Below, piece by piece: positions 77 through 57,267 of a stretch of 64,000 bases of DNA. Numbering within the stretch: position 1 is the stretch's first letter; every line of letters starts with the position of its first letter. The translations under genes and the position numbers were made by a program. The DNA lies in sequence record OR352954; one strand, written 5' to 3'. The notes beneath the pieces were generated by a model, which had not been told where the DNA came from, made no database searches, and was given only the letters and a program-made list of their open reading frames with translations. This stretch comes from Escherichia phage AV124.

Positions 77-475
77 ATGGCAACACGTAATGGTGTGGGC
101 GAGATTAACGACCTCGCTAAACTTTTGGATGAATACCAGCTCCAGGTTCCTAAGAAATACCTGAAGAAGTGGGAGTTCGACACCCTGGAAGAGGCAACAG
201 CTTTCGTCAAAGAATGGGAAGCAAAAGGCCGGGTATTTGACGGACATGAATGGAGAAAGGCCGTCAAAGATGACAACGGTGATAAAGTCAAGGATGCGGA
301 AGGCAATACAGTCTACGAAGGTATTTTCGGGGACGATGGTAAAATCCACATCCAGTATTGCCCTGTTGGTGAAATGGTCGTAAGATGTGTAGAGAAGGCC
401 GCTCGTATCATGGGCAGTCCTGTACATATCACAGGGGCATATCTTACGGGCGCCAATTGGGCGCAATGTCATTGA
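77..475 (+). CDS. hypothetical protein (132 aa)
   Basis: Intact ORF in the track; weak RBS; no recognisable motif. Confidence 0.5.
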   Translation: MATRNGVGEINDLAKLLDEYQLQVPKKYLKKWEFDTLEEATAFVKEWEAKGRVFDGHEWRKAVKDDNGDKVKDAEGNTVYEGIFGDDGKIHIQYCPVGEMVVRCVEKAARIMGSPVHITGAYLTGANWAQCH

Positions 476-493
476 TATATAAGGATATTTTAT

Positions 494-1129
494 ATGGAAT
501 TATGGAAAGACATCCCCTCTACGGAGGGGAGATACCAAGTAAGTAATTATGGAAGAATAAAAAGGCAACGGTATTCTCGCATAAACAGCAATCAAGCAGC
601 AAGTTGGGAGCAAGTATATGAAACAAAGATATTAAAGCCTTCAAAGGACACACACGGTTACCTACAAGCTTGTTACCTTGTGGAAGGAGAGAGGACTATA
701 GCCCTGGTCCATAGGCTTGTTGCAGAAGCCTTCCTTGCACCGCCAAGTCAAGAGTTGATAGATGAATGTATGAAGGCTGGTCACAAAGTGGTTCTTGTCA
801 ACCACAAGGATGGAAACCCACTTAACAACCATGTTGACAACCTTGAGTGGTGTACTCCTTCTTACAACAATGAGTATAGTCCCCAAGATTATTCAAATAG
901 GTCTGGGGATAACTGTAAACATGCGGTTCTTAAAGAATCTGATGTTGACAAAATACTGGAACTACGTGGTAAAATGAGTCAGCAGGCCATCGCGGATATG
1001 TTCGATGTGAAACAGATCACTATCAGCAACATTTTCACCGGAAGGTCTTGGTCTTCTTATACCGGAATACCTCGCAAAGAGCGTAACAAAGGAAAACGTG
1101 CAGCTAAGACCAAACTGTTATCACAATAG
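494..1129 (+). CDS. HNH homing endonuclease (NUMOD4-like N-terminal motif)
   Basis: N-terminus WKDIPSTEGRYQVSNYGRIKRQ matches the NUMOD4 pattern of phage HNH homing endonucleases; C-terminal helix-turn-helix-like segment; RBS AAGGA upstream. Confidence 0.75.
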   Translation: MELWKDIPSTEGRYQVSNYGRIKRQRYSRINSNQAASWEQVYETKILKPSKDTHGYLQACYLVEGERTIALVHRLVAEAFLAPPSQELIDECMKAGHKVVLVNHKDGNPLNNHVDNLEWCTPSYNNEYSPQDYSNRSGDNCKHAVLKESDVDKILELRGKMSQQAIADMFDVKQITISNIFTGRSWSSYTGIPRKERNKGKRAAKTKLLSQ

Positions 1130-53599: not shown

Positions 53600-53674
53600 T
53601 GGAGCACGGTAGGTGAATCGAACACCTGACATTTCTTTTGCAGAGAAAGCTGTTGCCACTCCAGCAACCGTGCT
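53600..53674 (-). tRNA. tRNA-Cys (GCA)
   Basis: Anticodon arm TTTCT-CTGCAAA-AGAAA, T-arm AGGTG-TTCGATT-CACCT; CCA encoded. Confidence 0.75.
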
Positions 53675-53789
53675 TTCGGGGGACCCGATTATTTCAATTC
53701 GCTTCCACACATTCGGGTCAAGACGTGTCCTATAGTCTTTCGACGCTTCCACAGCTCGGAGTAAACCCGTCCCGGCTGTCCTGTGAATT

Positions 53790-53871
53790 TGGCGAAGGCG
53801 GCAGGATTCGAACCCGCATACTCCAATTACTCGATTAACGACGGGTTAGAAGCCCGTTGAGATACGCCCTC
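53790..53871 (-). tRNA. atypical tRNA-like gene (anticodon-like loop TCT, no recognisable D-arm)
   Basis: Acceptor GAGGGCG/CGCCTTC and T-arm GCGGG-TTCGAAT-CCTGC are clear; only one further hairpin ACGGG-CTTCTAA-CCCGT, followed by a 23-nt unpaired region; CCA encoded. Confidence 0.4.
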
Positions 53872-54148: not shown

Positions 54149-54257
54149 TGGAGCAGGGTGGTGGAATCTAACCACCTATGTATTTAGCCATGCTGTTAGT
54201 TCTGGCATATTTTTCAGGTCTGGATGGACCTCGCGGTTGACAAACCGCCTACCCTGC
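54149..54257 (-). tRNA. oversized tRNA-like gene (109 nt) with internal insertion
   Basis: Acceptor GCAGGGT/ACCCTGC, D-arm GCGG-TTTGTCAA-CCGC, T-arm GGTGG-TTAGATT-CCACC; stem AGGTC/GACCT closes a 6-nt loop; about 37 extra nt before the T-arm; CCA encoded. Confidence 0.35.
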
Positions 54258-54259
54258 AT

Positions 54260-54334
54260 TGGCTTCTCGAACAGGAATCGAACCTGTACCGTCCCTATCG
54301 TGGGACCGCTCTAACCAAAGTAAGCTATCGAGAA
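54260..54334 (-). tRNA. tRNA-like gene with 6-nt anticodon-position loop
   Basis: Acceptor TTCTCGA/TCGAGAA, D-arm GCTT-ACTTTGGTTA-GAGC, T-arm ACAGG-TTCGATT-CCTGT; stem GTCCC/GGGAC closes loop ACGATA; CCA encoded. Confidence 0.5.
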
Positions 54335-57186: not shown

Positions 57187-57264
57187 TTGGTGACCCCCGG
57201 AGGATTCGAACCTACCTACCTCTCGATTATGAGTCGATTGCTCATACCTTATGAGCTTGAGGGC
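57187..57264 (-). tRNA. tRNA-Met/Ile2 (CAT)
   Basis: Anticodon loop CTCATAA, T-loop TTCGAAT, acceptor GGCCCTC/GGGGGTC with wobble pairs; CCA encoded. Confidence 0.65.
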
Positions 57265-57267
57265 CTT

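What the first reader, a model, noticed from the sequence alone, without database searches (positions are those of the whole stretch)
53790..53871. tRNA-like gene with acceptor and T-arm but no recognisable D-arm
Only seven nucleotides separate the acceptor stem from a hairpin with loop CTTCTAA (TCT anticodon if read canonically). A 23-nt unpaired stretch containing AATTGG precedes the T-arm. This is either a rearranged or degenerate tRNA-Arg, or a tRNA-like element.
Basis: seen in the sequence. Interest (0 to 1): 0.4.

Follow-up and report, generated by a model that had tools for sequence, protein, structure and literature searches.

The report
Phage arginine tRNA with rearranged core
This is a conserved phage gene for an arginine tRNA that has no ordinary D-arm hairpin; the two strands of that helix lie on either side of the anticodon arm, an arrangement found in hundreds of phages and, as far as I could find, never described.

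Summary
At 53790-53871 on the minus strand, inside a cluster of about 23 tRNA genes, lies an 82-nt tRNA-like gene. It has a 7-bp acceptor stem, a UCU anticodon arm, a canonical T-arm and an encoded GCCA end, but no D hairpin. ARAGORN misses it. Rfam's tRNA model passes it at 34.9 bits only by deleting the D-arm.

It is not degenerate. Homologues occur in 282 GenBank phage records and in more than 160 distinct viral-contig sequences. This helix shows 17 complementary triplet types and no mismatch in 58/58 aligned sequences. After it comes a D-loop-like UAAnnGGA motif.

Of 197 parsed members, 190 carry Arg anticodons, 188 of them with A after GG (the A20 Arg determinant). Five switched to Ile anticodons, and all five have GGU and A73. 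Nearby canonical tRNA-Arg genes almost never share the anticodon (4 of 166). Relatives Ro1 and KP12 carry a canonical tRNA-Arg(UCU) instead. The near-identical KPP-1 genome has no other AGR-reading tRNA.

Most likely this is a working tRNA-Arg(UCU) with a strand-swapped core. The fold and charging are inferred, not shown.

The parts
53790..53871 (-). Whole gene: 82-nt non-canonical tRNA-Arg(UCU), including the encoded 3' GCCA
   Evidence: Rfam RF00005 hit at 34.9 bits; family model R1 at 102.4 bits, full length 1-82; identical copy in the KPP-1 genome at 64007(-)
53865..53871 (-). Acceptor stem, 5' strand (G1-G7)
   Evidence: Pairs with 53794-53800; all 7 pairs show compensatory changes, 99% of cells paired in 58 sequences
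53862..53864 (-). Junction U8-A9-U10
   Evidence: Invariant in A1; UAU in 191 of 197 parsed members. The role of U8 as partner of A44 (A14-like) is inferred
53859..53861 (-). 5' strand of the relocated D-type helix (C11-U12-C13)
   Evidence: Pairs with G40-A41-G42. Pair 12-41 is UA 39 / GC 10 / AU 9 and pair 13-40 is CG 47 / GC 6 / UA 5, with none unpaired in 58 sequences; 17 complementary triplet types family-wide
53841..53857 (-). Anticodon arm: 5-bp stem and loop CUUCUAA; anticodon UCU at 53848-53850
   Evidence: Sequence; all 5 stem pairs covary; anticodon always Arg except 5 Ile members and 2 copies with 8-nt loops
53833..53840 (-). Bulge CGUUAAUC between the anticodon stem and the 3' strand of the relocated helix (variable-loop-like)
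   Evidence: CGUUAA invariant in the 82-nt class; replaced by 3-5 nt (AGAAA, UGAAA, AGNA) in the 77-80-nt classes
53830..53832 (-). 3' strand of the relocated D-type helix (G40-A41-G42)
   Evidence: Covaries with 53859-53861. The second GAG at positions 49-51 does not covary
53818..53829 (-). D-loop-like single strand UAAUUGGAGUAU; G48-G49-A50 at 53822-53824 (proposed G18, G19, A20); final U54 proposed as position 48
   Evidence: UAAnnGGA is conserved in sequences retrieved with a pattern that did not contain it. The nucleotide after GG is A in 188 of 190 Arg members and U in 5 of 5 Ile members. For the proposed 15/48 pair: A.U 188, G.C 4, G.G 3, G.U 1, U.U 1
53801..53817 (-). T arm: 5-bp stem and canonical loop UUCGAAU
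   Evidence: Rfam alignment; 4 of 5 pairs covary, 99.3% of cells paired
53794..53800 (-). Acceptor stem, 3' strand
53790..53793 (-). Discriminator G (53793) and encoded CCA (53790-53792)
   Evidence: Sequence. Among Arg members the discriminator is G in 92, A in 62, U in 28 and C in 8; CCA is encoded in 105 of 197

Best explanation
The locus encodes a functional phage tRNA-Arg(UCU) whose core is wired differently from the cloverleaf.

Shown by the sequence and by comparison: it has a normal acceptor stem, anticodon arm, T arm and GCCA end. Instead of a D hairpin, a 3-bp helix forms between C11-U12-C13, just after U8-A9-U10, and G40-A41-G42, which lies downstream of the anticodon arm. The anticodon arm is therefore enclosed by this helix. 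An 8-nt bulge sits on the 3' side. A 12-nt single strand, UAAUUGGAGUAU, with the sequence signature of a D-loop, leads directly into the T stem.

Inferred: the short helix stacks on the anticodon stem as a D stem does. U8 pairs with the first A of UAA (A14-like). The second A pairs with the U just before the T stem (Levitt 15-48-like). GG docks on the T loop (G18/G19 with psi55/C56). The following A sits in the 'position 20' pocket. The RNA would then reach an L-like shape as a topological isomer of a normal tRNA.

Inferred workflow: it is transcribed as part of the minus-strand tRNA array, 6 nt after tRNA-Leu(UAA). It is trimmed by RNase P and 3' exonucleases. Host ArgRS charges it through A20-like A50, C35, U36 and G73. 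It then reads AGA (and probably AGG) codons, which make up about a third of the arginine codons in this phage. The phage carries no other tRNA for these codons.

A duplication-deletion of the D-arm/anticodon-arm segment would be a simple origin, but this is speculation. Why phages keep this form is unknown; resistance to host tRNA-directed nucleases is one untested idea.
For: (1) Anatomy.
(2) Conservation: 282 GenBank phage records in unrelated groups (Mydovirus, Felixounavirus, the T5-like Sugarland group, Asteriusvirus jumbo phages, Justusliebigvirus, Streptomyces phages). After three IMG/VR pattern scans and one GTDB scan, 197 distinct parsed members are in hand.
(3) Helices: 94.7% of cells paired against 64% in shuffles, and 19 of 21 pairs have double changes. 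The new helix has no mismatch in 58/58 at pairs 12-41 and 13-40, with three pair types each. Slid controls collapse to 33-47% paired. There are 17 complementary triplet types, including A-U at the otherwise invariant C11-G42 pair.
(4) Arg specificity with the anticodon left free in the search: 128/128 Arg anticodons. Overall: UCU 152, CCU 18, ACG 12, UCG 5, CCG 2, GCG 1.
(5) Identity elements covary. 188 of 190 Arg members have A after GG. All 5 Ile-anticodon members have U there and A73 (Fisher p = 9e-9). This matches the published bacterial identity sets: Arg is A20, C35, U/G36, A/G73; Ile includes U20, U21, A73 (PMC9976931).
(6) Complementarity: of 166 members, 50 have canonical tRNA-Arg genes nearby, but only 4 share the anticodon. 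In 17 multi-copy loci every copy has a different anticodon.
(7) Replacement: Ro1 lacks the gene and has a canonical tRNA-Arg(UCU) in the same Leu(UAA)-Cys interval. In KP12 the gene is split by an HNH gene plus a canonical tRNA-Arg(UCU).
(8) Demand: AGA is 22.7% and AGG 10.5% of Arg codons in the window's ORFs. The near-identical KPP-1 genome has only tRNA-Arg(ACG) besides this gene.
Against: There is no expression, processing, aminoacylation or decoding data for any member. The 3-bp helix is not predicted by energy-based folding: RNAalifold returns only the acceptor, anticodon and T helices, and the single-sequence MFE is a different, non-conserved fold. The composite arm has 8-9 stacked pairs, against 10 layers in a normal tRNA, so the anticodon-to-elbow distance may differ. 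The tertiary contacts (U8-A14-like, 15-48-like, GG with the T loop, A20 pocket) are inferred from sequence analogy. The 15-48 signal rests on 8 variant sequences, 4 of which are not G.C. The sequences were collected with patterns that fixed parts of the motif, so the conservation of any one block rests on the scans that did not fix it. Members are related, so counts of sequences overstate independent events. The advantage of this architecture over a normal tRNA is unexplained. The artificial D-arm-less tRNA was usable in E. coli only after a mutation in pnp, the PNPase gene, so stability in vivo is not guaranteed.
Confidence: 0.75

Rival explanations
1. It is a tRNA-like decoy or regulatory RNA rather than a decoder. 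It mimics tRNA-Arg closely enough to bind or be cut by a host factor (an anticodon nuclease, ArgRS, or a modification enzyme) but does not deliver arginine to the ribosome.
For: The non-canonical core could hinder ribosome or EF-Tu use. The phage lineage invests in tRNA repair and maintenance: a CCA-adding enzyme and two RNA ligases are annotated in KPP-1. tRNA-targeting defences and phage tRNA counter-measures are documented, for example Septu cutting tRNA-Tyr (abstract of PMC13096335). The anticodon loop CUUCUAA is almost invariant.
Against: A decoy would not need to complement the anticodons of the neighbouring canonical tRNA-Arg genes (4 of 166 share an anticodon; 17 of 17 multi-copy loci have all copies different). 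It would not need to be exchangeable with a canonical tRNA-Arg(UCU). It would not need to switch A20 to U20 together with C35 to A35 and A73 when the anticodon becomes Ile. The acceptor stem, discriminator and CCA are maintained as in charged tRNAs.
Confidence: 0.12
2. It is a working tRNA-Arg but truly D-armless, like mitochondrial tRNA-Ser(AGY) or the synthetic mini HisT. The 7-nt and 23-nt segments would be flexible connectors, the shape Y-like, and the C11-C13/G40-G42 pairing and the D-loop analogy not structurally relevant.
For: RNAalifold does not predict the short helix. D-armless tRNAs can be charged and used by bacterial machinery. Three base pairs closing a large asymmetric loop are thermodynamically weak.
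Against: There is perfect complementarity with 17 triplet types at exactly these columns, and loss of pairing when partners are slid by 1-3 columns. UAAnnGGA and the canonical T loop UUCGAnU are strictly conserved, unlike mitochondrial D-armless tRNAs, whose elbow contacts are lost (PMC7609411 and PMC11551756). The nucleotide after GG tracks amino-acid identity, which implies it is presented to the synthetase.
Confidence: 0.08
3. It is a decayed tRNA gene, an integration-site remnant, or merely a recognition site kept by the neighbouring HNH homing endonucleases. It would have no RNA function.
For: Many GenBank records leave it unannotated or call it tRNA-OTHER or a pseudo-type. HNH endonuclease genes flank it in FelixO1, Roth39, SSBI34, PHA46 and bumzen, and interrupt it in KP12.
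Against: Compensatory substitutions in all four helices keep an RNA structure, not a DNA site. It is full length with both acceptor strands, unlike att-site fragments. It occurs in phage groups with and without adjacent HNH genes, and in this window sits between two tRNA genes. Its anticodon complements the local tRNA set.
Confidence: 0.03

Closest known systems
Canonical bacterial and phage tRNA-Arg(UCU), e.g. E. coli argU or the canonical genes in Raoultella phage Ro1 and Klebsiella phage KP12
   Same: Same anticodon loop CUUCUAA, 7-bp acceptor stem, 5-bp T stem with UUCGAAU loop, G/A discriminator and encoded CCA. The D-loop-like AAUUGGA resembles argU's AGUUGGA (argU sequence from my own knowledge). 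It occupies the same slot in the tRNA array as the canonical gene of Ro1.
   Different: There is no D hairpin between positions 10 and 25. The helix strands lie on either side of the anticodon arm, and the D-loop-like segment follows the helix and runs into the T stem. The result is a three-way rather than four-way junction. ARAGORN missed 162 of 166 members.
Mitochondrial D-armless tRNAs (mammalian mt-tRNA-Ser(AGY), nematode mt-tRNA-Ser(UCU))
   Same: No D hairpin, and a short connector between the acceptor and anticodon stems (PMC7609411).
   Different: Those are organellar, have lost the D-loop/T-loop elbow contacts, are flexible or Y-shaped, and need dedicated synthetase binding modes. This family keeps a canonical T loop, an invariant GG, a covarying D-type helix and bacterial identity nucleotides. 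It lives in phages of bacteria.
Synthetic D-arm-less 'mini HisT' used by E. coli (Edelmann et al. 2024, PMC11551756)
   Same: It shows that bacterial aaRS, EF-Tu and ribosomes can use a tRNA without a D hairpin.
   Different: It is artificial, with bases 11-25 simply deleted. It has no relocated helix or D-loop-like strand, and it needed a pnp mutation to be usable in vivo.
allo-tRNAs and (8/4), (9/3) tRNAs of bacteria and phages (Mukai et al. 2017, PMC5389517)
   Same: Non-standard tRNAs found in phage tRNA clusters and metagenomes.
   Different: Those alter the acceptor/T-stem lengths but keep a four-arm cloverleaf with a D hairpin. Here the acceptor/T branch is a standard 7/5 and the D arm is rewired.
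Circularly permuted tRNA genes of the red alga Cyanidioschyzon merolae (from my own knowledge, not checked here)
   Same: tRNA segments appear in a non-standard order in the gene.
   Different: There the 3' half precedes the 5' half, and processing through a circular intermediate restores a normal cloverleaf. Here the termini are normal and the permutation is internal, so it would persist in the mature RNA.

Membership tests
tRNA (Rfam RF00005, canonical cloverleaf) | Score at or above the family's gathering threshold | tested here: met
   34.9 bits against a gathering score of 29, at 53793-53871(-)
tRNA (Rfam RF00005, canonical cloverleaf) | 7-bp acceptor stem closed by the 5' and 3' ends, then discriminator and CCA | tested here: met
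   GAGGGCG/CGCCUUC + GCCA; all 7 pairs covary
tRNA (Rfam RF00005, canonical cloverleaf) | T arm: 5-bp stem and 7-nt loop with the U54-U55-C56-R57-A58 signature | tested here: met
   GCGGG UUCGAAU CCUGC; U60, U61, C62 and A64 invariant in A1
tRNA (Rfam RF00005, canonical cloverleaf) | Anticodon arm: 5-bp stem and 7-nt loop with U33 and a purine at 37 | tested here: met
   ACGGG CUUCUAA CCCGU; 196 of 197 members have a 7-nt loop
tRNA (Rfam RF00005, canonical cloverleaf) | D-arm hairpin (stem 10-13/22-25 enclosing the D loop) between the acceptor and anticodon stems | tested here: not met
   Only 7 nt lie between the stems. The CM deletes 15 D-arm positions. ARAGORN makes no call.
tRNA (Rfam RF00005, canonical cloverleaf) | Variable region of 4-5 nt, or a self-contained extra stem-loop | tested here: not met
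   There are 23 nt with no hairpin of their own. Three of them pair with positions 11-13.
Bacterial tRNA-Arg identity set (A20, C35, U/G36, A/G73; PMC9976931) | C35 and U36 or G36 in the anticodon | tested here: met
   Anticodon UCU. All 190 Arg-class members have C35 and U/G36.
Bacterial tRNA-Arg identity set (A20, C35, U/G36, A/G73; PMC9976931) | Discriminator A73 or G73 | tested here: met
   G at 53793. Family: G 92, A 62, U 28, C 8.
Bacterial tRNA-Arg identity set (A20, C35, U/G36, A/G73; PMC9976931) | [quoted passage not shown] | tested here: inconclusive
   An A directly follows the invariant GG (GGA at 53822-53824) in 188 of 190 Arg members and is U in all 5 Ile members. Whether it occupies the position-20 pocket in three dimensions cannot be tested here.
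Bacterial tRNA-Arg identity set (A20, C35, U/G36, A/G73; PMC9976931) | Aminoacylation by ArgRS | not testable with these tools
   Needs an in vitro charging assay or an acid-gel Northern blot
Mitochondrial-type D-armless tRNA | D hairpin replaced by a short connector | tested here: met
   7-nt connector
Mitochondrial-type D-armless tRNA | Loss of the conserved D-loop GG and T-loop elbow elements; relaxed, non-canonical T loop | tested here: not met
   Canonical UUCGAAU T loop and an invariant GG in a D-loop-like strand
Permuted tRNA gene processed to a normal cloverleaf | 3' half encoded upstream of the 5' half, with termini inside the mature sequence | tested here: not met
   The 5' and 3' ends form the acceptor stem directly and CCA is terminal
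Strand-swapped-core phage tRNA-Arg family defined here (model R1) | acceptor(7) - UAU - C-N-N helix strand - anticodon arm - 3-8-nt bulge - N-N-G helix strand - UAAnnGGA...AU - T arm | tested here: met
   102.4 bits, full-length match, the best hit in the window. Every block is present. The window sequence is in the model's training alignment, so the score is partly by construction. Independent members of other length classes, which were not in the model, score 50-76 bits.

The most novel reading that the evidence does not exclude
This is one member of a large, previously undescribed class of translationally active phage tRNAs (mostly Arg, with a small Ile offshoot) whose core is a topological isomer of the cloverleaf. 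The D-stem strands and D loop are permuted around the anticodon arm, yet the RNA still forms an L shape and presents A20 to the host ArgRS. It would be the first natural non-cloverleaf tRNA working in bacterial cytoplasm. It may be kept because the rewired core escapes host enzymes that recognise or cut normal tRNA cores.
Probability: 0.5. Interest if true: 0.9.

Novelty: new variant of a known kind. Interest (0 to 1): 0.8.

Why it matters
[quoted passage not shown] The 2020 review of non-canonical tRNAs describes D-arm-lacking tRNAs only for mitochondria and does not mention phages.

If this family is active, it is a natural counter-example, and it occurs in well-studied cultivable phages (Felix O1, 121Q, phi92-like, rV5-like and T5-like Klebsiella phages). 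Several questions then become directly testable:
- How much of the tRNA core topology do RNase P, ArgRS, EF-Tu, modification enzymes and the ribosome actually need?
- How is A20 read in a different backbone context?
- Do phages rewire tRNAs to evade tRNA-targeting defences?

There is also a practical point. ARAGORN missed 162 of 166 members, and GenBank records label the gene tRNA-OTHER, tRNA-Leu or nothing. Phage tRNA repertoires and codon-usage analyses therefore systematically lack an AGR decoder. The scaffold could also interest people who engineer orthogonal tRNAs.

Tried and rejected
1. Canonical cloverleaf: ARAGORN, the Rfam tRNA model and MFE folding give none.
2. The single-sequence MFE (-29.7 kcal/mol, z = -2.35) breaks the T and anticodon arms. 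I rejected it because those arms covary across the family.
3. RNAalifold on 58 sequences recovers only three helices, so the extra helix rests on comparative counts, not on energy.
4. Pairing of C11-C13 with the second GAG (positions 49-51) is rejected. That GAG stays constant when positions 11-13 change to CGC, CAG, CCC and so on, while positions 40-42 follow.
5. A fourth helix pair (14-39) forms in only 11 of 58 sequences, so I did not count it.
6. I found no conserved complementarity between the bulge and the D-loop-like strand by inspection.
7. Other Rfam families give only sub-threshold chance hits on these coordinates.
8. A second copy in the window: none.
9. A canonical tRNA-Arg(UCU) elsewhere in the genome: none in the near-identical KPP-1.
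10. A strictly Arg-only architecture is rejected, because the covariance model found 5 Ile-anticodon members.
11. Cellular rather than phage origin is unlikely. In one genome for each of 185,579 species there were only 42 pattern hits, about 24 of them real, and 26 distinct members once the model was run over those loci. They lie mostly on MAG contigs or in tRNA arrays. The two isolate-chromosome copies I examined sit next to a phage integrase or a phage tail gene.
12. Seven full-text literature searches and five papers read found no prior description. The library lacks most subscription journals, so an older description (for example of T5 or Felix O1 tRNA regions) cannot be excluded.
13. The 116-nt spacer downstream (53674-53789) shows no significant structure (z = 0.43).

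Full report
**1. What is at the coordinates**

The window is part of a roughly 143-kb Klebsiella myophage of the genus Mydovirus (Vequintavirinae). The 821 bases around the finding are 99% identical to phages VLCpiM5b, KPP-1 and VIK251.

A cluster of tRNA genes lies on the minus strand between 50.9 and 57.3 kb. ARAGORN genes there, and Rfam adds two more.

The finding lies inside this cluster, 6 nt downstream of tRNA-Leu(UAA) and on the same strand. Read on the minus strand, 53871 to 53790 gives:

GAGGGCG UAUCUCA ACGGG CUUCUAA CCCGU CGUUAAUCGAGUAAUUGGAGUAU GCGGG UUCGAAU CCUGC CGCCUUC GCCA

- a 7-bp acceptor stem
- 7 nt, then a hairpin with loop CUUCUAA
- a 23-nt stretch containing AAUUGG
- a T arm

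No program produces a cloverleaf:
- ARAGORN skips the locus.
- The Rfam tRNA model reaches 34.9 bits (gathering score 29) only by deleting the 15 D-arm positions and inserting about 20 nt in the variable region.
- The minimum-free-energy fold is a different structure that breaks the T arm.

**2. It is conserved, not degenerate**

The 101-nt stretch matches 282 GenBank phage records. They include:
- Mydovirus, 100% identical
- T5-like Klebsiella phages of the Sugarland group, 96%
- Felix O1 and other Felixounavirus
- the jumbo phages 121Q and PHA46
- phi92-like Justusliebigvirus
- rV5-like phages
- in part, Streptomyces phages

Most records do not annotate it. Some call it tRNA-OTHER. 121Q calls it tRNA-Leu(taa).

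Three pattern scans of IMG/VR, each fixing different blocks, and one scan of GTDB genomes brought in many more. A covariance model built from 58 sequences (R1) was then run over all fetched DNA. This gave 211 distinct hits, of which 197 parse into the same layout.

Lengths fall into classes of 77-80 nt and 81-82 nt. The classes differ in the bulge and in the tail of the D-loop-like strand.

In the window the model scores the locus at 102.4 bits and ordinary tRNAs at 33 bits or less. There is therefore one copy.

**3. The structure**

On the 58-sequence alignment the proposed structure has 94.7% of cells paired, against 64% after shuffling. Sliding the partners by 1-3 columns drops this to 33-47%. 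Nineteen of 21 pairs show changes on both sides.

| Pair | Types seen in 58 sequences | Unpaired |
|---|---|---|
| 11-42 | C-G 58 | 0 |
| 12-41 | U-A 39, G-C 10, A-U 9 | 0 |
| 13-40 | C-G 47, G-C 6, U-A 5 | 0 |

Family-wide there are 17 complementary triplet types: CUC/GAG, CGG/CCG, CCC/GGG, CAC/GUG, CGC/GCG, CAG/CUG and others. They include ACC/GGU and AGC/GCU, where even the first pair changes. A possible fourth pair (14-39) forms in a minority of sequences.

RNAalifold does not predict this helix. The support is comparative, not energetic.

After the helix every class has U-A-A-n-(n)-G-G-A...A-U and then the T stem. This was seen in sequences retrieved with a pattern that did not contain the motif. 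The motif is the signature of a D loop: A14, R15, two variable positions, G18, G19, A20.

The second A and the U just before the T stem behave like the Levitt pair 15-48: A.U in 188, G.C in 4, G.G in 3, G.U in 1, U.U in 1, and never A.C. This is suggestive but rests on few variants.

My reading is as follows. The D stem exists but its strands are permuted. The order is [3'-type strand] - anticodon arm - bulge (variable-loop-like, 3-8 nt) - [5'-type strand] - D-loop-like strand - T arm. The helix can then stack on the anticodon stem as usual, and the D-loop-like strand can reach the T loop. That three-dimensional picture is inference.

**4. Evidence that it is a working tRNA-Arg**

(a) With the anticodon arm left free in the search pattern, 128 of 128 distinct sequences had Arg anticodons. 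Over all parsed members the counts are UCU 152, CCU 18, ACG 12, UCG 5, CCG 2 and GCG 1.

(b) The covariance model also found five members with Ile anticodons (GAU, UAU). In all five, the A after GG is replaced by U and the discriminator is A. By contrast, 188 of 190 Arg members have A there (Fisher p = 9e-9). The published bacterial identity sets are A20, C35, U/G36 and A/G73 for Arg; U20, U21, A73 and the anticodon are among those for Ile (PMC9976931). Identity nucleotides that change together are what one expects of RNAs that must be charged.

(c) Of 166 members, 50 have canonical tRNA-Arg genes within the fetched flanks, but only 4 share the anticodon. The non-canonical gene typically supplies the missing isoacceptor. 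In all 17 loci with two or three non-canonical copies, the copies have different anticodons.

(d) In the related Mydovirus Ro1 the gene is absent, and a canonical tRNA-Arg(UCU) lies in the same Leu(UAA)-Cys interval. In KP12 the gene is split after GGAGU by an HNH endonuclease gene that brings a canonical tRNA-Arg(UCU) with it.

(e) AGA and AGG make up 22.7% and 10.5% of the Arg codons in 54 ORFs of the window. The complete, near-identical KPP-1 genome has tRNA-Arg(ACG) as its only other Arg tRNA, and carries this gene unchanged at 64007(-).

(f) E. coli synthetase, EF-Tu and ribosomes accept an artificial tRNA lacking the D arm without adaptation (PMC11551756). Use of a D-hairpin-less tRNA in an enterobacterial host is therefore plausible.

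**5. Rivals**

- A decoy or regulatory mimic cannot be excluded without charging data. It does not explain the anticodon complementarity, the exchange with canonical genes, or the co-switch of identity elements.
- A truly D-armless, floppy tRNA is contradicted by the perfect covariation of the 3-bp helix and by the conserved GG and T loop.
- A pseudogene or homing-endonuclease target is contradicted by compensatory changes in all helices.

**6. Distribution**

Among the parsed members, 163 come from IMG/VR viral contigs, 8 from GenBank phages and 26 from GTDB genome contigs.

The genome hits are mostly MAG contigs, often inside arrays of 15-27 tRNA genes. The two isolate chromosomes I examined carry the gene next to a phage integrase (Agrobacterium) or next to a tape-measure protein and a GIY-YIG endonuclease (Devosia). 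The family therefore looks phage-borne.

**7. Comparison with what is known**

It passes the Rfam tRNA threshold and has three of the four arms, but it fails the defining D-hairpin and variable-region features.

- It differs from mitochondrial D-armless tRNAs, which have lost the elbow elements.
- It differs from allo-tRNAs, which change acceptor/T lengths but keep a D hairpin.
- It differs from algal permuted tRNA genes, which mature into normal cloverleaves (my own knowledge).

Seven literature searches and five papers read found no description of this arrangement. A 2024 paper states that all known bacterial tRNAs are canonical cloverleaves. The library lacks most subscription journals, so earlier mention cannot be ruled out. 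Annotation pipelines have flagged some copies as tRNA-OTHER.

**8. Verdict**

The 'rearranged tRNA-Arg' reading is supported, and the 'degenerate' reading is not.

The locus is a member of a large phage family of tRNA-Arg genes with a strand-swapped core. I rate it a new variant of a known kind. Function as a charged decoder is strongly suggested by comparative evidence but is unproven. The three-dimensional model is inference.

Noticed in passing
window 54152-54258 (-): A 107-nt tRNA-like RNA that ARAGORN does not call. It has a 7-bp acceptor stem, a selenocysteine-type D arm (6-bp stem, 4-nt loop), a 5-bp anticodon stem with a 6-nt loop CAUCCA, a ~38-nt variable region, a T arm with loop UUAGAUU and an encoded CCA. 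MFE is -40.2 kcal/mol, z = -4.09. Rfam tRNA-Sec gives only 22 bits against a gathering score of 47.
   Followed up: partly
window 54260-54334 (-): An otherwise normal tRNA whose anticodon loop has 6 nt (ACGAUA). ARAGORN reports 'tRNA-???' with a 2-base anticodon. The same gene is in KPP-1. Two adjacent genes with 6-nt anticodon loops are unlikely to be an accident.
   Followed up: partly
window 57188-57265 (-): A tRNA with anticodon CAU found by Rfam (42.3 bits) and by model R1, but not by ARAGORN in the window. ARAGORN calls a tRNA-Met at the corresponding position in KPP-1.
   Followed up: partly
L015 (Klebsiella phage KP12) 380-1010: The non-canonical tRNA-Arg gene is interrupted after GGAGU by an HNH endonuclease ORF followed by a canonical tRNA-Arg(tct). 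This looks like a mobile cassette that destroys the old gene and brings its replacement. K18PH07C1 has the same split.
   Followed up: partly
L277 (Raoultella phage Ro1) about 456-532 (-): Where the window has the non-canonical gene, Ro1 has a different 65-nt sequence ending in GCCA (UGGGGUACUU...GUCCCCGCCA). It looks like a CCA-ended minihelix or tRNA-like RNA, and is followed by a canonical tRNA-Arg(tct).
   Followed up: no
L023:5506-5585(+), L158:2889-2967(-), L191:2425-2504(-), L183:1078-1156(+), L222:9034-9113(+): Five members of the same strand-swapped architecture carry isoleucine anticodons (UAU or GAU). All have GGU instead of GGA and discriminator A, which is an apparent identity switch from Arg to Ile.
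   Followed up: partly
L253 (Agrobacterium radiobacter DSM 30147) 1997-2074 and L236 (Rhizobiaceae MAG) 85-162: These copies have an 8-nt anticodon loop CCUUCUAU. L253 lies next to a phage-type integrase and an HTH regulator. They could be frameshift-prone or inactive variants.
   Followed up: no
KPP-1 genome (L279, L280): record positions 74409-75371, 101172-102419, 140823-141866: The near-identical phage encodes an RNA ligase, a CCA tRNA nucleotidyltransferase and an RNA ligase 2. These are tRNA repair or maintenance functions that fit a conflict with host tRNA-targeting defences.
   Followed up: no
L002 (Escherichia phage 121Q) 405-486: The homologue of this gene is annotated in GenBank as tRNA-Leu(taa). 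By its anticodon loop CUUCUAA it is Arg(UCU).
   Followed up: yes
L196:8180-8420(-), L138:1175-1539(-): Tandem arrays of three non-canonical tRNA-Arg genes with different anticodons: CCG, CCU and UCU in L196; ACG, CCU and UCU in L138. Some phages thus cover most Arg codons with this architecture alone.
   Followed up: partly
window 53674-53789 (-): The 116-nt spacer between the non-canonical gene and tRNA-Cys has no significant predicted structure (z = 0.43). In Ro1 this interval holds the canonical tRNA-Arg(tct).
   Followed up: yes
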